Positions 20,209-52,324 of a stretch of DNA of 64,000 bases are shown piece by piece. Source of the DNA: Pseudomonadota bacterium (GTDB taxonomy: Bacteria; Pseudomonadota; Alphaproteobacteria; Rhodobacterales; Rhodobacteraceae); NCBI GenBank assembly GCA_039028795.1, contig JBCCHJ010000013.1, positions 35,587 through 99,586 on the forward strand, in the 5' to 3' direction. Positions within the stretch are counted from its first letter, which is position 1. Every line of letters starts with the position of its first letter. Made by a program: the position numbers and the translations under genes. The notes under the pieces were generated by a model. It was not told the origin of the DNA. It ran no database searches and worked only from the letters and a program-made list of their open reading frames with translations.

Positions 20209-21345
20209 ATGAGTTTCTTGAAAGATGTTAGGGGCCATCTGAAACGCGGTGCAAAGAACGTAGAAAAGACCGCAAAGAAGGCCAAATCAAAGATCGACAA
20301 AGCGACGGCGCCGATTGATGACTTGGTAGAGGACGCGTTCGAGAAGGCAGTAGATGGCACCAAGACCACTCTACGAGAAACCGGCGATTTCGCTAAAGAT
20401 CGCGCCGAAGGTGTCGGCGATTTCGTTGAAAAGGTTGCCGATAGCAAACCCGTTGAACGCATAAAAGATGCCGGAGAGTTCATCGGCGATGGCCTAAAAG
20501 AAATCGGCGGCAATATCGGAGAGGCCATCGAGCCGATCGCGCGTCCTGTGGGCGATGGCTTCAAAGAACTGGGCATAGAAATTAAACGCTTTGCAGATGA
20601 GGCCGCTGAAAAAGGCATGGCCTTCGTCAAGGACAAGATCGACAACAACCAGGATTTTCAACGCTCGATCGCCGCCATCAAGAATCACGGTAGGATCATC
20701 AATGCGTTGGGGAACACCCACGAATTGATGAAAGACAAAGAGGTCCGCAAAGAAATATTTGGGGATGTCGTCAATCCAATCCGCCGAAACGAAGTTCGCG
20801 GCGTCGATGCGCAACAAAAAATCGACGGCCTGGCAACACATCCTGCGATGGCAGAGTTGATGGAAGCCGGTGAAGACTCGGACTACGACGGTTGGTGCAT
20901 CTCCTTAGGAGGGGTTCTAGATGTGCCGGGCCTAGGTGTCGGCGGCCAAGCTGCAGGCGGTGTGCTTTTAGCCCCGGCTCGGGTCTACGGTGCGCTGAGT
21001 TGGAGCCTGGGGATGGCAGTGGGCATAAACGCAGATGTCCAAATCGGCTTTTGGTTTCGAAAAGTTTAGGCAATGTCCGGCAAGTTCTACTCGATCGAAG
21101 TCGATCTGCATGTGCCGCAAATCGTACTAGGGGGCTTGCCTACTGGCGCCAGCCTTGCTGTCAGCTTCGACACCAAAGATATCTGGGAAATGGGCTTTGC
21201 CAATGTGCCGGGATCCAGTTTCACTGACCCGATCGACACTACGCATGATCACGGTCTCCAGGGGTTTGTGATCAGTGGCGGCGTCGGTGTTGGGGGTGAG
21301 CTGTTCAACCGCGCATCGGGGCACACCTGGGTTACCGGAACTTGA
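20209..21345 (+). CDS. Hypothetical protein interrupted by one in-frame TAG (ORFs 20209-21069 and 21073-21345 share a frame)
   Basis: ...AAA GTT TAG GCA ATG...; amphipathic repeat N-terminus, Gly-rich beta-type C-terminus spanning the stop. Confidence 0.65.
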
Positions 21346-21402: not shown

Positions 21403-21432
21403 ATTTGACCGATCGTTCCAAACTAGTATAGT
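21403..21432 (+). promoter_or_regulatory. Promoter and probable operator of the TetR gene
   Basis: TTGACC-16 nt-TATAGT overlapping the imperfect palindrome TTGACCGATCGTTCCAA; ATG 6 nt after the -10. Confidence 0.7.
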
Positions 21433-21438
21433 CACAGC

Positions 21439-22014
21439 ATGCCCTGGGAAAAAAAATACAATGAACCAGACGTTTTGGACCGCGCTATGCGTGCCTTTTG
21501 GTCACGAGGCTACGAAGCGACATCTATGTCCGACTTGGTCGCTGCGACGGGGATTAATCGTGGCAGCATCTATTCAGCATTTAATGACAAACGCGGGCTA
21601 TTTCTGAAAGCGCTAAAGCATTACGATCGCGCACATAGGGCGGACTTTTTGGACCGTCTGGCGCAAACGCACTCACCACGCGATGCTATCTTGCAAGCTT
21701 TTGCAGCCGCTGCGCAACGCGAATCCGATCATCCGCCTGGGTGTCTCTTGGTCAATACAGCTCTCGAGCTTTCTCCCCACGATCCGGAAGTTGCAGCAAT
21801 GGTTCAAAGTAGCCTTGATCAAGTGAAGCTCTTCTTCTGCGCCATGCTGCGCGCAGCCCGAAGGGCTGGCACGATTCCAGCGGATGTTTCTGTCGAAGAG
21901 AAAGGCGCCGCCTTGCTTAGCCTCTTCTTAGGCCTGCGCGTGATGGCGCGCGCCGGAATGAATGACGAAGGCACCCAGGCTGTCCTTGATCAGGCGGAGG
22001 CGATGTTGGGCTGA
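21439..22014 (+). CDS. TetR/AcrR family regulator (NemR-like)
   Basis: HTH GYEATSMSDLVAATGINRGSIYSAFNDKRGLF; PGCLLVN Cys motif. Confidence 0.93.
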   Translation: MPWEKKYNEPDVLDRAMRAFWSRGYEATSMSDLVAATGINRGSIYSAFNDKRGLFLKALKHYDRAHRADFLDRLAQTHSPRDAILQAFAAAAQRESDHPPGCLLVNTALELSPHDPEVAAMVQSSLDQVKLFFCAMLRAARRAGTIPADVSVEEKGAALLSLFLGLRVMARAGMNDEGTQAVLDQAEAMLG

Positions 22015-22030
22015 AGCCAAAAATTTTTCG

Positions 22031-22054
22031 CTAGTTTGGAACGATCGATCAAAT
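22031..22054. promoter_or_regulatory. Second, inverted copy of the putative TetR operator
   Basis: CTAGTTTGGAACGATCGATCAAAT is the reverse complement of 21403-21426 at 23/24 positions. Confidence 0.75.
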
Positions 22055-48260: not shown

Positions 48261-49466
48261 ATGTTCCGTATGACCGTTTCCATATTCCTGGCCGCAACGC
48301 TCAGCGCCCATGCCGGCAGCTTGGATGAACTGTTGGCGAACCCAGACGATCCCCCCGCGAACAGCTTGCGCAACCAGATGGCGGACCTTTTCGATGCGCG
48401 TCAACATCCAGATCTGCCGGATCGGATTGATTACGATTTGACGTTCGATGCCCAGACAGAGGATGAAGCACGGGCCGAGCATCTGACCTTTATGGGCCGG
48501 GAGGCGTTTCGGACGGACCGGCCGACGCGAGCCCGGATCCTCTTCGAAGAGGCAGCAAAGCTGGGATCTGCACCGGCTTATGCGAATCTTGGATGGATGC
48601 ATCTGAGCGGCGCTGGTCAACTGACGCATGATTACCGCAGATCAATAGAGATGCTCCGTCGCGCTGCCGAAAGCGGAAATCCCCGCATTCTGACGATGTT
48701 TGCTGCGGCGCTGCTCAACAGTCCGAACATTGCCGAAAAGCCCGAGCTTCGAGCTAAGGGCATGAGTTTGCTGGAAACCGCGTCATACCTTGGCGATCTC
48801 AGGGCCAGCTTCATGCTGGCATGGCAAAGCTTCGCGAAGGAGCCGAAGGACATGGAACGTTTCGAGGCGGCCGTCCAACGCGTTTGGGAGGGCGGAGAGA
48901 GCAAGTATCGACTGGAAATCGTGAAGCTGTTCATGAACCAATCAGGGACCCAAGACCACGCCCGGACAAGGCGGATGCTGGAGGAGATTGGCTCGGACGG
49001 TCATGCCTACATATGGAAATACTATCGCGACGGTTTAGGTGGATCGAAAGATGTCGAGAAAGCCGCTCAGGCGCTTCTCAGCAGTCGAATAGGAGACTTG
49101 GAAGGCTTTTCCCCAACGGTTTGGACCCCACCCGATCCAAAGGACTATTCACCGGAATTCAATACAGAGCTGAAGAAAGTCCTGAACAGGGCCGGTTTGT
49201 TCGATGGTCCGATTGATGGACAGAGCACCAAAGAGTTTCGACGCGCACTGGTGATGTATCCGTTTCAAGCCAAGCACTTTCATATGAATTCGATTTACGA
49301 AGACTTTGGACACCCAAGGTTGGAGGAGCTAGTTCGCGATTTGATCATCGATGAAAGGCTACTTAGAACCATCACCGAAGACAGGCATAAAGCCTGGCCC
49401 AGGGAAAGGATCGCCGCAACGACTGAGAAGATCGAAAAGCTGCGTGCCGAACTGAGTTTGGACTAG
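48261..49466 (+). CDS. Secreted Sel1-like repeat protein with peptidoglycan-binding-like domain
   Basis: Signal peptide (AHA), AYANLGWMHLSG, YYRDGLGGSKDVEKA, LNRAGLFDGPIDG. Confidence 0.8.
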   Translation: MFRMTVSIFLAATLSAHAGSLDELLANPDDPPANSLRNQMADLFDARQHPDLPDRIDYDLTFDAQTEDEARAEHLTFMGREAFRTDRPTRARILFEEAAKLGSAPAYANLGWMHLSGAGQLTHDYRRSIEMLRRAAESGNPRILTMFAAALLNSPNIAEKPELRAKGMSLLETASYLGDLRASFMLAWQSFAKEPKDMERFEAAVQRVWEGGESKYRLEIVKLFMNQSGTQDHARTRRMLEEIGSDGHAYIWKYYRDGLGGSKDVEKAAQALLSSRIGDLEGFSPTVWTPPDPKDYSPEFNTELKKVLNRAGLFDGPIDGQSTKEFRRALVMYPFQAKHFHMNSIYEDFGHPRLEELVRDLIIDERLLRTITEDRHKAWPRERIAATTEKIEKLRAELSLD

Positions 49467-49572
49467 GATCGCACCTGCCGACCCCGATCGCGACCGCGAA
49501 TTGCGCCGGAACTGGACCTTCGGCCCGTTCGCTTGTTAGGATTGCAACCTCGAGCAGAACGGGAGAGCTCTG

Positions 49573-49854
49573 ATGACACCCAAGATCATATGCCTCGCCG
49601 CCCTTACCGCCATGATGGTGACAGCCTGTACCGGAGAGTCTAGCGAACGCAGCCTGGGCCCGGCCTGCCGCGATGGATTGGCCGCCGGAAATCAAGAGCT
49701 AAAGGATGCGAAGGCGCGTGGCTTGTCCGGCGCCGTCGGCTGGACCAAAGCTGCCAGCCTGCTCGCTGCCGCCAAGCTTCAACAGCAGTTCGAGGAATAT
49801 CAGAACTGCGTGGTCAAAGTTCGCGAAGCCCGGGGCTACATTAGGGAGCTTTGA
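49573..49854 (+). CDS. Small lipoprotein
   Basis: Lipobox-like MVTAC, helical body with a further Cys pair; GGGAG RBS. Confidence 0.75.
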   Translation: MTPKIICLAALTAMMVTACTGESSERSLGPACRDGLAAGNQELKDAKARGLSGAVGWTKAASLLAAAKLQQQFEEYQNCVVKVREARGYIREL

Positions 49855-49898
49855 TCTCGTGATTTAATTTGTCAAAGGCATCTGACCACGATAGACGA

Positions 49899-49929
49899 TT
49901 GCGTCAACATTGCTGACATGTTATACAAT
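49899..49929 (+). promoter_or_regulatory. Candidate promoter for the tRNA cluster
   Basis: TTGCGT-17 nt-TATACA with a TGn extension (overlapping TACAAT) in an AT-rich stretch. Confidence 0.45.
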
Positions 49930-50036
49930 GCTTATGGAACGGACAGTCGCATACACTCATCGACTAGCCTTACTCGCCTGACGGCGGGTGAGGTCTGACG
50001 CGTTTCCATCGTCCAAAAACCTTCCCCGCCATCAAT

Positions 50037-50113
50037 GCGGGTTTAGCCCAAATGGTAGAGGCAACGGACTTAAACTCCGTCCAGTATCGGTTCGATCCCG
50101 GTAACCCGTACCA
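50037..50113 (+). tRNA. tRNA-Leu(TAA), short variable loop, CCA encoded
   Basis: Manual cloverleaf: GCGGGTT/AACCCGT acceptor, ACGGA-CTTAAAC-TCCGT anticodon arm, 5-nt variable CCAGT, TTCGATC T-loop, ACCA end. Confidence 0.92.
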
Positions 50114-50195
50114 CCCCTTTCCGCAAAGTTGCTGACTGACGTCAGCGCACTGGTTTCGCGGCAGTCGTCTCAAAGAGCCGATGAACGCAATCGAG

Positions 50196-50272
50196 GGGAG
50201 CGTAGCCCAACCGGAAGAGGCACTGCACTCAGACTGCAGGTGTTGCGGGTTCGACTCCCGCCGCTCCTACCA
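50196..50272 (+). tRNA. tRNA-Leu(CAG), short variable loop, CCA encoded
   Basis: GGGAGCG/CGCTCCT acceptor, CTGCA-CTCAGAC-TGCAG anticodon arm, variable GTGTT, GCGGG-TTCGACT-CCCGC, ACCA end. Confidence 0.92.
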
Positions 50273-50375
50273 TCTGACTTTTTCGAAGAAAAGTCGCCGA
50301 CATGAAAGCAAGCGCAACGGTATGCGCGATGGCTGTTTTGAAGAAACGGCAAAAGCTTCGCAAATGGCCAAATGC

Positions 50376-50449
50376 GCGAGGGTAGCCCAATTGGCAGAGG
50401 CAGCGTCCCGAGACGGCGTTCAGTGCGGGTTCGACCCCCGCCCCTCGCA
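50376..50449 (+). tRNA. tRNA-Leu(GAG), short variable loop, C33, CCA not encoded
   Basis: GCGAGGG/CCCTCGC acceptor, GCGTC-CCGAGAC-GGCGT anticodon arm, variable TCAGT, GCGGG-TTCGACC-CCCGC, A73. Confidence 0.82.
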
Positions 50450-50458
50450 GAGAAACAA

Positions 50459-50478
50459 AGGTGGGGCGAACCCCACCT
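50459..50478. terminator. Terminator hairpin between the tRNA cluster and the RidA gene
   Basis: AGGTGGGG-CGAA-CCCCACCT; T-rich tail on the minus strand. Confidence 0.75.
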
Positions 50479-50485
50479 CAAAGTA

Positions 50486-50833
50486 TTACGACTTCGCGGC
50501 GATCACCGTAATTTCCACCGTGAAGCCCGGTGTCGCCAGATCGGCCGATCCGCAGGCCCGCGCAGGGGCTGCGCCTTCCGGCACCCAGGCATCCCAAACG
50601 CCATTCATCTCGGCAAAGTCATCCATGCTCTTCAGCCAGATGATGGCTTGCAGGACGTTGGACTTGTCGGTCCCGGCTTCGGCCAGCAGACCATCAATCT
50701 TCCTCAGAATCTCGGAGGTCTGATCGGCGACGGATTGGTTTTCGGTGCCAACCTGTCCGGCCAGATAGACCGTGTCGCCATGGACCACAATCTGGCTCAT
50801 GCGTTGACTGGTGTGCATACGGGTGATGGACAT
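50486..50833 (-). CDS. RidA/YjgF family protein
   Basis: SQIVVHGDTVYLAGQV, FAEMNGVWDAW, APARAC, VEITVIAA. Confidence 0.93.
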   Translation of the reverse strand: MSITRMHTSQRMSQIVVHGDTVYLAGQVGTENQSVADQTSEILRKIDGLLAEAGTDKSNVLQAIIWLKSMDDFAEMNGVWDAWVPEGAAPARACGSADLATPGFTVEITVIAAKS

Positions 50834-50845
50834 GCGGGTTCTCCC

Positions 50846-51940
50846 TTATCGGAAACGTTGAGGCGAAAGCGCCTGGATGATGTCTGAAGATAGAGCCGGT
50901 TCATGCCCCATGATCTGATCCGCCGCAAGCTGAGACATGGCGGGCGCGGTTTGAATGCCATACCCGCCCTGCCCAACCAGCCAATAGAAGCCATCCGCAC
51001 CCGGCTCGAACCCGTTCACCGGTGTTCGGTCCGGAGCGAAGGTGCGCAGCCCCGCCCAGGACCGCTCAATCCGCGTGACCTCCATGGTCGTCGCTTTCGA
51101 AAACCGGTCCAGCCCTTCGGCCAGAACCATGTCATCGGGAAAGGCGTCATGGGGCTCCATCGGGTCCTCGTCCGCCGGGGACACCCAGAGCCGCCCACTC
51201 TCGGGCTTTGCATACCATGTCTCGGCCACCGCGGCGGTCAGCGCCCAGTGCGACACGTCCTGCTCGACCGGCAATACCGCCACAGTTCTGCGCATTGGTG
51301 TCAGGCCCACAGACGCAAGACCGGCGGCTTCGGCCACCTGGTCGCCCCAGGCGCCCGCCGCATTCACAACCACCGGGGCAGAGAATATCCCCGCCTTGGT
51401 CGAGGCAACCCACACCCCCTCTGTCCGGGTCAATGAGGACACTTCGGCGTTCGGGACGATCTGTCCGCCATTGGCCCGCAAACGGCGGATAAAGGCCTGC
51501 AAGAGCCCGTCAACATCGATATCCGAGGCCGACGTCTCCAAAGCGCCGCGCACGACCATGTCGGGCCGGTAGATCGGGAACAGTTCGATCACCTGCTGGG
51601 GGTTCAACATCTCAAGCCCCGCAGCACCGTTGATGTAGGTCTCAAACTCTGCGGCCTGGCCCGGTTCTTCCACCTGCATCACACCGCGCGGGGTCAGGAA
51701 ACCGTCTTCGGCCAGATCGCCACCGGACCGAAGAACGTCCTCTGACGCTGCGTTCAGCGCCCTGAGTACATCATTGCCATAGTTCAGGATAAACGTGGCC
51801 GCAGATCGTCCGGTGGTGTGATAGGCGGGTCGATCCTCCATTTCCAGCACCACGACTTTGCCGTGGGGTGCCAGACGCGCCGCTGCCCCACAACCGGCCA
51901 TTCCAGCCCCGATTACTAGGAAATCTGCGGTTTCTGTCAT
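50846..51940 (-). CDS. FAD-dependent oxidoreductase (DAO family)
   Basis: GAGMAG, HTTGRSAA, WAGLRTFAPDRTP, GQGGYGIQTAP. Confidence 0.92.
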   Translation of the reverse strand: MTETADFLVIGAGMAGCGAAARLAPHGKVVVLEMEDRPAYHTTGRSAATFILNYGNDVLRALNAASEDVLRSGGDLAEDGFLTPRGVMQVEEPGQAAEFETYINGAAGLEMLNPQQVIELFPIYRPDMVVRGALETSASDIDVDGLLQAFIRRLRANGGQIVPNAEVSSLTRTEGVWVASTKAGIFSAPVVVNAAGAWGDQVAEAAGLASVGLTPMRRTVAVLPVEQDVSHWALTAAVAETWYAKPESGRLWVSPADEDPMEPHDAFPDDMVLAEGLDRFSKATTMEVTRIERSWAGLRTFAPDRTPVNGFEPGADGFYWLVGQGGYGIQTAPAMSQLAADQIMGHEPALSSDIIQALSPQRFR

Positions 51941-52324
51941 GTTCCCTCAATAGTATTGGACTGCGGTTCGCTGGATAAACAATCTACCCAAGTTGCAGAC
52001 GATTTTAATCGAATTTTAGCGAATGCCGCGTATCACCGCCCCATCACGCGTGTGAGCAAGGTAAGATATTGGAAGCTTACCTAGCTCTGGGTCCTCTGAG
52101 AATTGGATCCATCCCTTAGCGGCTAGCCGCACCTTTATTCTGGCCTTCGTGGCAATAGGACCCTGGTCCGATACGATCAGAAAAGTCCAAAAGTTGAGCC
52201 CCGTTCCCCACCAACCCGTCGCGAGATTTGGACTGGCTTCTTGCCCTATGTGCAAACTCGATCCCGCGAGGCTTGCACGACACCCTGCAAAACCCGATCA
52301 TAGGGCAAAGCAAAGGGGGCGTTC

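What the first reader, a model, noticed from the sequence alone, without database searches (positions are those of the whole stretch)
50228..50414. CAG and GAG tRNA-Leu carry A37, not G37: predicted TrmD (m1G37)-independent decoders of CUN codons
Seen in sequence: the anticodon loops are CT-CAG-AC and CC-GAG-AC, so position 37 is A. The TAA tRNA loop is CT-TAA-AC, which lacks the A36-A37-A38 run. Established: canonical bacterial tRNA-Leu(CAG/GAG) have G36-G37, which TrmD methylates to suppress +1 frameshifting, and MiaA isopentenylation needs A36-A37-A38. Inference: this set could work with a reduced modification requirement, for example under SAM or Mg limitation or TrmD inhibition, or could differ in frame maintenance.
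Basis: partly seen in the sequence, partly recalled or inferred. Interest (0 to 1): 0.7.

Follow-up and report, generated by a model that had tools for sequence, protein, structure and literature searches.

The report
Accessory short-armed leucine tRNA cassette
The three genes are extra, horizontally acquired leucine tRNAs of the short-armed "type I" kind known from Streptomyces and common in phages. Their unusual A at position 37 is real and conserved, but it is a trait of this tRNA lineage, not a variant of the cell's normal leucine tRNAs.

Summary
The CAG tRNA (50196-50272) has loop CUCAGAC and the GAG tRNA (50376-50449) has CCGAGAC, so both carry A37 and C38. The UAA tRNA (50037-50113) has CUUAAAC, which lacks A38.

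The finding leaves out the main fact. All three are 74-77 nt type I tRNAs with a 5-nt variable loop. They sit beside a complete canonical long-armed tRNA-Leu set, which has G37 in its CUN readers.

They belong to a large family with a tRNA-Leu-like D arm, A15:U48 and A73:
- 191 of 193 phage members sampled carry Leu anticodons.
- About 74% of sampled Actinomycetes have UAA or CAA versions.
- A sister alphaproteobacterial family uses one as its only CAA tRNA.

The same UAA-CAG-GAG cassette occurs in three other marine sequences with unrelated flanks. The CAG loop is invariant in all four, A37-C38 is kept in all eight CUN readers, and the stems show abundant compensatory changes.

These tRNAs cannot be TrmD substrates. 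That follows from the known G36-G37 requirement. Any role as a stress backup is untested. TrmD and RlmN are both present in the genome. The window's GAG copy also has C33 and no encoded CCA.

This is a new member of a known kind and is moderately interesting.

The parts
49940..50036 (+). 5' leader upstream of the first tRNA, probably holding the promoter and leader of the cassette
   Evidence: 71 of 97 bases are identical to the stretch upstream of the cassette in metagenome contig L378, although the flanking genes are unrelated. The same CGACTAGCC..GCCTGAC..GGGCGGG motif precedes the degraded cassette remnant in same-genus genome G021. No consensus sigma-70 promoter passed the simple scan.
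50037..50113 (+). Type I (short variable loop) tRNA-Leu(UAA), 77 nt with encoded CCA. Loop is CUUAAAC (A37, C38); G1:U72; A73.
   Evidence: ARAGORN; Rfam tRNA 54.1 bits; model R1 84.2 bits. Orthologues occupy the same cassette position in G548, L378 and L379.
50196..50272 (+). Type I tRNA-Leu(CAG), 77 nt with encoded CCA. Loop is CUCAGAC (A37 = 50233, C38); G1:U72; A73.
   Evidence: ARAGORN; Rfam tRNA 56.0 bits. The loop and the acceptor stem GGGAGCG are identical in all four cassettes. CUCAGAC is also the commonest loop among phage type I CAG tRNAs (12 of 40).
50376..50449 (+). Type I tRNA-Leu(GAG), 74 nt with no encoded CCA. Loop is CCGAGAC (C33, A37 = 50413, C38); G1-C72; A73. It may be partly impaired.
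   Evidence: ARAGORN; Rfam tRNA 46.7 bits. The orthologues in L378, L379 and G548 have CUGAGAC and an encoded CCA. C33 before GAG occurs in 24 viral contigs and in the G021 remnant.
50458..50479 (.). G+C-rich hairpin between the last tRNA and the convergent RidA-family gene. It is terminator-like on the minus strand and could also end the tRNA transcript.
   Evidence: Terminator scan; sequence. The RidA-family assignment of ORF 50486-50833 (minus strand) comes from Pfam Ribonuc_L-PSP.

Best explanation
Positions 50037-50449 hold an accessory, horizontally acquired cassette of three type I (short variable loop) leucine tRNAs with anticodons UAA, CAG and GAG. It is preceded by its own leader of about 95 nt.

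The tRNAs belong to a family that keeps the elements bacterial LeuRS is reported to read:
- a 3-bp D stem with a 13.22 mismatch
- A14
- the tRNA-Leu D-loop length and G18G19 placement
- the A15:U48 pair
- A73

The family has lost the long variable arm, which LeuRS does not strictly need.

Inferred mechanism:
1. The cassette is transcribed as a unit.
2. RNase P and 3' trimming process it, and CCA is added to the third tRNA.
3. The genome's single LeuRS charges the tRNAs with leucine.
4. They decode UUA/UUG, CUG and CUC/CUU alongside the canonical long-armed isoacceptors.

The C32(/C33)...A37-C38 anticodon loops are a conserved design of this cassette. The same loop frame (CU-NNN-AC) is used by the host's own tRNA-Gln(CUG), tRNA-Glu and tRNA-Asp. 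Because position 37 is A, the CUN readers cannot carry TrmD's m1G37, and the UAA reader lacks the MiaA motif. If A37 is modified at all, m2A37 made by RlmN is the most likely modification.

Shown here: gene structure, family membership, conservation, covariation, horizontal placement, and the presence of LeuRS, TrmD and RlmN.

Inferred: expression, leucylation, decoding and the modification state.
For: Scaffold and host set:
- Three strong tRNA calls, each with a 5-nt variable loop.
- A complete canonical class II tRNA-Leu set lies elsewhere in the genome, with G37 in its CUN readers.

Family evidence for leucine identity:
- 193 unique phage tRNAs carry this D arm, all 74-79 nt long. 191 of them have Leu anticodons.
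- Among the phage tRNAs that could be scored, A73 is present in 188 of 191, U48 in 183 of 187, and the variable loop is 5 nt in 177 of 191.
- In the same phage loci, Leu tRNAs are 308 short and 66 long, whereas Ser tRNAs are 4 short and 102 long.

Cellular use:
- In G025 and G027 of sister family f2, the type I tRNA is the only CAA tRNA.
- 222 of 301 sampled Actinomycetes have a match. All 30 best loci are type I UAA or CAA tRNAs.

Experimental precedent:
- The S. coelicolor type I tRNA-Leu(CAA) is leucylated by the single ScoLeuRS, and attempts to delete its gene failed (PMC6614811).

The cassette as a conserved unit:
- The same gene order occurs in G548, L378 and L379, with unrelated flanks.
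- 99.2% of stem cells are paired, 14 of 20 pairs show compensatory changes, and 0 of 500 shuffles reach this.
- The CAG loop is invariant and A37-C38 is present in 8 of 8 CUN readers.

Insertion in this genome:
- Same-genus genomes with the syntenic RidA-DAO pair have no tRNA at this site.
- An independent 13-kb contig from a public run spans the locus with no differences.

Enzymes:
- One LeuRS per genome.
- TrmD and RlmN are present.
Against: - There are no expression or charging data. Only metagenomic DNA runs hold the locus.
- E. coli LeuRS did not charge the Streptomyces type I tRNA-Leu in vitro (PMC6614811), so charging by a proteobacterial LeuRS is not guaranteed.
- The window's GAG tRNA has C33 and lacks an encoded CCA, unlike its orthologues.
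- A same-genus genome (G021) retains only a fused, broken remnant of the cassette, so the cassette is dispensable and can decay.
- No consensus promoter was found.
- The cassette is rare. In the order sample of 201 genomes (about 195 of them from the window's own family f1), only G000 and G133 among the f1 genomes have members. None of 400 other genomes sampled across the phylum has one.
Confidence: 0.6

Rival explanations
1. Adaptive backup module. The cassette is kept because its tRNAs differ from the host's tRNA-Leu in the variable arm and the anticodon loop (A37, C38). They would therefore keep leucine decoding going when canonical tRNA-Leu fails. That failure could come from m1G37 or i6A37 deficiency (SAM limitation or TrmD inhibition, the first reader's idea) or from attack by tRNA-directed nucleases or toxins (a trait inherited from phage tRNAs).
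For: - The loops are under strong conservation while the stems drift.
- The cassette covers the codons that make up about 96% of leucine codons in a crude codon count.
- The family is abundant in phage tRNA arrays. Phage tRNAs have been proposed to evade anticodon nucleases through loop changes (PMC10264068).
- A37 excludes TrmD and AAC excludes MiaA, by established substrate rules.
Against: - No toxin, nuclease or stress gene is linked to any of the four cassettes.
- TrmD is present and the canonical G37 tRNAs are intact.
- Many family members carry canonical-like G37 loops.
- The cassette decays in a close relative.
- No experiment bears on this idea.
Confidence: 0.2
2. Decaying passenger. 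The cassette arrived by horizontal transfer, ultimately from a phage-type tRNA array. In this genome it is neutral or already losing function, and A37 and C33 have no present physiological meaning.
For: - The window's GAG copy has U33 changed to C33 and has lost the encoded CCA that its orthologues keep.
- G021 of the same genus has only a UAA/GAG fusion remnant behind the same leader.
- The distribution is rare and patchy.
- A complete canonical set makes the cassette redundant.
Against: - All three cloverleaves in the window are intact, with fully paired stems.
- Four cassettes keep the same order, anticodons and loops, with many compensatory changes. Neutral decay would not preserve that.
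- C33 before GAG recurs in 24 phage contigs, so it may be tolerated.
Confidence: 0.13
3. Not leucine adaptors for the ribosome. The tRNAs would be charged with another amino acid, which would recode or mistranslate Leu codons, or they would serve a tRNA-dependent non-ribosomal enzyme.
For: - E. coli LeuRS failed on the Streptomyces type I tRNA-Leu.
- Bacterial families of deliberately mistranslating tRNAs exist, for example tRNA-ProX (PMC11415595).
Against: - There is no extra aaRS or tRNA-dependent enzyme next to any cassette, and only one LeuRS per genome.
- The family's D arm is tied almost exclusively to Leu anticodons (191 of 193). A73 and A15:U48 are about 98% conserved.
- In the f2 genomes examined a family member is the only CAA tRNA, and in Actinomycetes type I UAA and CAA tRNAs are widespread.
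Confidence: 0.05

Closest known systems
Type I tRNA-Leu(CAA) of Streptomyces coelicolor (Fan et al. 2019, Nucleic Acids Res 47:6369, PMC6614811)
   Same: - A short 5-nt variable loop on a bacterial tRNA with a Leu anticodon.
[quoted passage not shown]
- In my Actinomycetes sample, the tRNAs matched by the model share the window's D arm (UAGCCCAAnnGGCAGAGGCA), A73, and loops such as CUCAAAC and CUUAAAC with C38.
   Different: - The Streptomyces tRNA reads UUG and is the cell's only CAA isoacceptor; attempts to delete its gene failed.
- The window's tRNAs are redundant extras, in an alphaproteobacterium.
- Two of them read CUN codons with A37, where canonical tRNA-Leu has m1G37.
- I did not see the S. 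coelicolor sequence itself, so identity of lineage is inferred from other Actinomycetes.
Short tRNA-Leu genes of phage tRNA arrays, e.g. Pseudomonas phage ZC03 ZC03_043 (UAA, 77 nt) and Mycobacterium phage Phabba KHO57_gt003 (GAG, 74 nt), annotated simply as tRNA-Leu
   Same: - Same D arm, 5-nt variable loop, A73 and frequent G1:U72.
- All six Leu anticodons occur in the family.
- The loop CUCAGAC, identical to the window's CAG tRNA, is the commonest CAG loop.
   Different: - The phage genes lie in phage genomes, usually within arrays of up to about 30 tRNAs.
- The window's three lie alone in a chromosomal metabolic neighbourhood with no phage genes.
- The strict cassette-specific pattern found nothing in the viral collection.
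Horizontally acquired tRNA gene clusters of mycobacteria (Behra et al. 2019, BMC Evol Biol 19:124, PMC6582537)
   Same: An accessory tRNA cluster whose tRNA-Leu(UAG) has a short variable loop, while the core isoacceptor has the normal long one.
   Different: Those clusters hold 11-32 tRNAs for many amino acids. This cassette is leucine-only with three genes, and it recurs as a fixed UAA-CAG-GAG unit.
Canonical bacterial class II tRNA-Leu(CAG/GAG) with m1G37
   Same: Same anticodons, discriminator A73, D-loop architecture and A15:U48 pair. Compare with the host's own genes.
   Different: No long variable arm. 9 and 13 are A and C rather than G and G. The loop is C32/A37/C38 rather than U32/G37/U38, so the G36-G37 TrmD substrate motif is absent.

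Membership tests
Type I (short variable loop) tRNA-Leu family of Actinomycetes and phages | Cloverleaf tRNA with a 4-5 nt variable loop instead of a long arm | tested here: met
   Length 74-77 nt. Variable loops are CCAGU, GUGUU and UCAGU. Rfam tRNA matches run end to end. Covariation across the cassettes supports all four helices.
Type I (short variable loop) tRNA-Leu family of Actinomycetes and phages | Leucine anticodon | tested here: met
   The anticodons are UAA, CAG and GAG. 191 of 193 phage members and every cellular member I examined carry Leu anticodons.
Type I (short variable loop) tRNA-Leu family of Actinomycetes and phages | tRNA-Leu-type core: U8, A14, a 3-bp D stem with C13.A22, D loop AAnnGGnAGA, A15:U48 and A73 | tested here: met
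   All three tRNAs have UAGCCCAAnnGGnAGAGGCA, U48 and A73. Model R1 scores them 84-89 bits, against 72 bits or less for other isotypes. In the family, A73 is present in 188 of 191 and U48 in 183 of 187.
Type I (short variable loop) tRNA-Leu family of Actinomycetes and phages | Aminoacylation with leucine by LeuRS | not testable with these tools
   Only precedent (S. coelicolor, PMC6614811) and indirect genomic evidence are available. One LeuRS gene is present.
Canonical bacterial class II tRNA-Leu | Long variable arm (total length about 85-87 nt) | tested here: not met
   The variable loops are 5 nt. The host's canonical genes are 85-87 nt.
TrmD (m1G37) substrates | G37 preceded by G36 in the anticodon loop | tested here: not met
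   G36-A37 in both CUN readers. The requirement itself is established enzymology and was not tested here. TrmD is encoded in the genome.
MiaA (i6A37) substrates | A36-A37-A38 | tested here: not met
   The UAA tRNA has A36-A37-C38. Cassette orthologues are split, with AAC in the window and L378 and AAA in L379 and G548.
Mobile or phage-derived tRNA gene arrays | A cluster of accessory tRNA genes, placed by horizontal transfer, that duplicates core isoacceptors with a different structure | tested here: met
   Four cassettes lie in four unrelated neighbourhoods. The cassette is absent from the syntenic site in same-genus genomes. It duplicates three canonical isoacceptors.
Mobile or phage-derived tRNA gene arrays | Linkage to a phage, plasmid, integrase or other mobility genes | tested here: not met
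   Pfam finds no such genes within about 10 kb on either side in the window or among the ORFs scanned within about 5 kb upstream and 3 kb downstream of the cassette in L379.

The most novel reading that the evidence does not exclude
A small, self-contained UAA-CAG-GAG cassette of short-armed leucine tRNAs, ultimately of phage origin, moves among marine Alphaproteobacteria. It is retained as a modification-independent and/or toxin-proof spare decoding set. Its conserved C32...A37-C38 loops would let CUG and CUY be read in frame without TrmD's m1G37. Its armless body and altered loop would escape factors that recognise host tRNA-Leu. If so, it would be a natural demonstration that m1G37 is dispensable for CUN decoding when position 37 is A.
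Probability: 0.15. Interest if true: 0.75.

Novelty: new member of a known kind. Interest (0 to 1): 0.4.

Why it matters
m1G37 on CUN-reading tRNA-Leu is regarded as a near-universal safeguard of reading frame, and TrmD is an antibiotic target. This cassette is a natural, conserved set of CUG and CUY decoders with A37 that lives beside the normal G37 set. It offers a ready-made test of whether A37 can replace m1G37 for these codons, and of how a proteobacterial LeuRS handles armless tRNA-Leu.

There are two practical consequences:
- Genome annotation labels these genes simply "tRNA-Leu", which hides a distinct phage-, actinobacterial-type lineage.
- Type I tRNA-Leu appears far more widespread than the single published Streptomyces case suggests. 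About 74% of sampled Actinomycetes have one, one alphaproteobacterial family uses it as its sole CAA tRNA, and hundreds of phage contigs carry it.

Tried and rejected
- **Wasted scan.** My first scan of genome contigs used the wrong gap, N{22,24} instead of N{25,27}. One hit did give a handle into Actinomycetes.
- **Dedicated synthetase or tRNA-dependent enzyme next to the genes.** Rejected. The neighbours are YqiJ, flotillin, a Sel1-repeat protein, a small unannotated ORF (93 aa, no Pfam match), RidA, a DAO oxidoreductase and metabolic enzymes. There is one LeuRS per genome.
- **Prophage or integrative element in the window.** No integrase, transposase or phage genes lie within about 10 kb.
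- **Assembly chimera or contamination.** Rejected. A 13-kb contig from an independent assembly of a public run spans the locus without differences and at even depth. The flanking RidA-DAO pair is syntenic in same-genus genomes.
- **Gln identity.** The UAA tRNA shares its anticodon stem with host tRNA-Gln(CUG), and the loop frame CU-NNN-AC is Gln-like. However, the acceptor end (G1, A73) and the D-arm length are Leu-like, not Gln-like (U1-A72, G73).
- **Expression data.** None exist. Only metagenomic DNA runs hold the sequence.
- **Promoter.** No consensus sigma-70 promoter was found.
- **Literature.** Searches for a published description of phage type I tRNA-Leu, or of A37 in CUN-reading tRNA-Leu, found nothing specific. 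One query was badly designed.
- **Cassette in phages.** The strict cassette pattern found nothing in viral contigs.

Full report
**1. The observation**

ARAGORN finds three tRNA genes in the whole 64-kb window, all on the plus strand: 50037-50113 (UAA), 50196-50272 (CAG) and 50376-50449 (GAG). Rfam's tRNA model matches each end to end at 54.1, 56.0 and 46.7 bits, against a cut-off of 29.

The anticodon loops, read from the sequence, are:
- CUUAAAC at 50069-50075
- CUCAGAC at 50228-50234
- CCGAGAC at 50408-50414

Position 37 is A and position 38 is C in all three.

Two features were not mentioned. Every one of the three is only 74-77 nt long with a 5-nt variable loop, so they are type I in shape. 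The GAG tRNA has C33 instead of U33 and no encoded CCA.

**2. They are extras, not the cell's leucine tRNAs**

The window lies on contig C13 of a 6.0-Mb, 160-contig assembly from a marine metagenome. A tRNA scan of the whole assembly finds a complete canonical set of long-armed tRNA-Leu genes: GAG, CAA, UAG, CAG and UAA, 85-87 nt each. Their loops are UUGAGGU, UUCAGGU and UUUAGGU (G37) for CUN codons, and A37-A38 for UUR codons.

**3. What the scaffold is**

The three share the D arm UAGCCCAAnnGGnAGAGGCA. This has the length and layout of the host's canonical tRNA-Leu D arm (UGGCGGAAUUGGUAGACGC): a 3-bp stem, a 13.22 mismatch, A14, A15, and G18G19 in the same register. They also share U48, which pairs with A15, and the discriminator A73. 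These are the elements listed as E. coli LeuRS identity determinants in the introduction of PMC6614811.

I built a covariance model from these three tRNAs and six relatives (R1). It separates the family (84-99 bits) from all other tRNAs (72 bits or less, mostly tRNA-Phe).

**4. Where the family occurs**

Over two scans I collected 193 unique tRNAs, all 74-79 nt. Of these, 191 have a leucine anticodon, covering UAG, UAA, CAG, GAG, CAA and AAG.
- A73 is present in 188 of 191, U48 in 183 of 187, and the variable loop is 5 nt in 177 of 191.
- In those phage loci, leucine tRNAs are mostly short (308 short, 66 long), while serine tRNAs stay long (4 short, 102 long). This fits the fact that SerRS needs the long arm and LeuRS does not.
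- Named examples annotated plainly as tRNA-Leu are Pseudomonas phage ZC03 ZC03_043 and Mycobacterium phage Phabba KHO57_gt003.

*Actinomycetes.* 222 of 301 sampled genomes have a match. The 30 best loci are all type I tRNA-Leu(UAA) or (CAA) with the same D arm, and many have C38 (CUUAAAC, CUCAAAC).

*Alphaproteobacteria.* All six genomes of a sister family (f2) carry a type I tRNA(CAA). A full tRNA census of two of them shows long-armed Leu tRNAs only for UAA, CAG, GAG and UAG, so the short tRNA is their only CAA species. A few small genomes carry a single type I UAA tRNA.

*Rarity elsewhere.* Of about 195 sampled genomes of the window's own family (within the 201-genome order sample), only this genome and one other (G133, a single UAA gene with the same CUUAAAC loop) have members. 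None of 400 other genomes sampled across the phylum has one.

**5. Published precedent**

Fan et al. 2019 (PMC6614811) showed that Streptomyces coelicolor has one type I tRNA-Leu(CAA) beside four type II species. Its single LeuRS leucylates both types, attempts to delete the gene failed, and E. coli LeuRS does not charge the type I tRNA in vitro.

Behra et al. 2019 (PMC6582537) noted a short-variable-loop tRNA-Leu(UAG) in horizontally acquired tRNA clusters of mycobacteria.

Short-armed bacterial leucine tRNAs and accessory tRNA clusters are therefore both known kinds. I found no paper that describes their abundance in phages or the A37 state of the CUN readers.

**6. The three genes are a conserved, relocating cassette**

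The same three genes, in the same order UAA-CAG-GAG, occur in G548 (another alphaproteobacterial family) and in two metagenome contigs, L378 and L379. The flanking genes are unrelated in all four. L379, for example, has AspRS, a luciferase-like monooxygenase and a BLUF protein.

The window and L378 also share about 73% identity over the 97 nt upstream of the first tRNA. A same-genus genome (G021) has this leader followed by a single broken gene that fuses the 5' part of the UAA tRNA to the 3' part of the GAG tRNA.

Same-genus genomes that keep the RidA-DAO gene pair have no tRNA next to it. A 13-kb contig from an independent assembly of a public run spans 48500-52000 without a single difference. 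The cassette is therefore really inserted here and is not an assembly artefact. No mobility or phage genes lie within about 10 kb.

**7. Selection on the cassette**

Across the 12 cassette tRNAs:
- 99.2% of stem positions pair.
- 14 of 20 pairs show changes on both sides.
- All five measures exceed every one of 500 shuffles, and sliding the partner columns collapses pairing to 42-52%.

Against this drift, the CAG loop CUCAGAC is identical in all four cassettes. The GAG loop is CUGAGAC in three and CCGAGAC in the window. A37-C38 is present in 8 of 8 CUN readers.

In the wider phage family the picture is looser:

| Anticodon | A37 | G37 |
|---|---|---|
| CAG | 24 | 16 |
| GAG (U33 subset) | 6 | 26 |
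| UAG | 15 | 31 |
| UAA | 33 | 7 |
| CAA | 21 | 8 |

One further GAG member has U37. Two loop designs recur: a canonical-like U32...G37-U/A/G38, and C32...A37-C38. The second uses the same loop frame as the host's tRNA-Gln(CUG) (CUCUGAC), tRNA-Glu and tRNA-Asp. The window's CAG loop differs from the host tRNA-Gln(CUG) loop only at position 35.

**8. What follows for modification**

By established substrate rules, which were not tested here, TrmD methylates G37 only after G36, and MiaA needs A36-A37-A38. The two CUN readers therefore cannot carry m1G37, and the window's UAA tRNA is not a predicted MiaA substrate.

The genome does encode TrmD and RlmN. The host is not short of TrmD. m2A37, the modification E. 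coli places on A37 of tRNA-Gln, Glu, Asp, His and Arg (my own knowledge), is a plausible fate for these tRNAs.

Whether the cassette gives any advantage under SAM or Mg limitation or TrmD inhibition is open. A rival adaptive idea is evasion of tRNA-directed nucleases, as proposed for phage tRNAs in PMC10264068. Nothing in the four neighbourhoods points to either.

**9. Caveats specific to this copy**

The window's GAG tRNA has C33 and lacks an encoded CCA, while its closest orthologue (L378) has U33 and CCA. C33 before GAG is a recurrent minority state in phages: 24 viral contigs, of which 14 have A37 and 10 have G37. It is also present in the G021 remnant. It may be tolerated, or it may mark the start of decay.

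A crude codon count gives CUG 48%, UUG 22%, CUU 13%, CUC 10%, CUA 4% and UUA 3%. The cassette duplicates decoding capacity for all leucine codons except CUA. It does not fill a gap.

**10. Verdict**

The best explanation (confidence about 0.6) is an accessory, horizontally acquired cassette of functional type I leucine tRNAs whose A37-C38 loops are a lineage design. It is a new member of a known kind, and its main value is as a natural test case for m1G37-free CUN decoding.

Earlier notes from this scan on other genomes (short-armed leucine tRNAs in phages and mobile arrays, "often A37") agree with this reading. I treated them as leads and re-derived the points here.

Noticed in passing
own genome, contig C36:14866-15011 (outside the window): Two overlapping 74-nt tRNAs. 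The first has a tRNA-Gln-like body (U1-A72, G73, and the same anticodon stem as the host tRNA-Gln(UUG)) but the anticodon UAG, which reads the Leu codon CUA. The second is a Val(UAC)-like tRNA with an odd acceptor end. This could be a mistranslating or phage-type pair. UAG is the one CUN anticodon the cassette lacks.
   Followed up: no
sister family f2: G027:C1:1061857-1061930, G025:C4:1438221-1438294 (L019-L024): All six sampled genomes of this alphaproteobacterial family carry a type I tRNA-Leu(CAA). In the two genomes censused in full it is the only CAA tRNA, and no long-armed CAA gene exists. This parallels Streptomyces in a different phylum.
   Followed up: yes
Actinomycetes sample (L334-L365): Type I tRNA-Leu(UAA/CAA) with the same D arm is present in 222 of 301 sampled Actinomycetes genomes. 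That is far broader than the single published S. coelicolor case. Many have C38, and so lack the MiaA motif.
   Followed up: partly
G021:C145:21728-21817 (L005): A same-genus genome has the cassette's leader followed by a single broken gene. The gene fuses the 5' part of the UAA tRNA to the 3' part of the GAG tRNA (loop CCGAGAC, as in the window). It looks like a collapsed cassette remnant at a non-syntenic site.
   Followed up: partly
window 49940-50036; L378:7606-7702: A leader of about 97 nt upstream of the cassette is 73% identical between the window and L378, despite unrelated flanking genes. It contains a predicted stable hairpin. This suggests the mobile unit carries its own promoter and leader.
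   Followed up: partly
phage family (L087-L291) and cassette tRNAs: A G1:U72 wobble pair closes the acceptor stem in 85 of 191 phage family members and in 6 of 12 cassette tRNAs, always with A73. This is unusual for elongator tRNAs and may be relevant to LeuRS or RNase P recognition.
   Followed up: no
G006:C48 (L011:1381-1686): A same-genus genome has a tight Pro(UGG)-Leu(UAG, 77 nt, short-armed)-His(GUG) tRNA cluster. Its D arm differs (UAGGCAAAAUGGAAAAGCC). It is another accessory array with a short tRNA-Leu.
   Followed up: no
public run X5 (organism A), 165-nt contig on window 50209-50272: A sequencing run labelled with a single organism name (coded 'organism A'), not as a metagenome, holds a fragment nearly identical to the 3' half of the CAG tRNA (2 differences), which then diverges. 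It may be a carrier of a related tRNA.
   Followed up: no
window 20209-21345 and 21403-22054: Other first-stage notes on this window describe a 378-codon ORF split by one in-frame amber codon, and a TetR gene bracketed by a 24-bp inverted repeat. I did not examine either.
   Followed up: no
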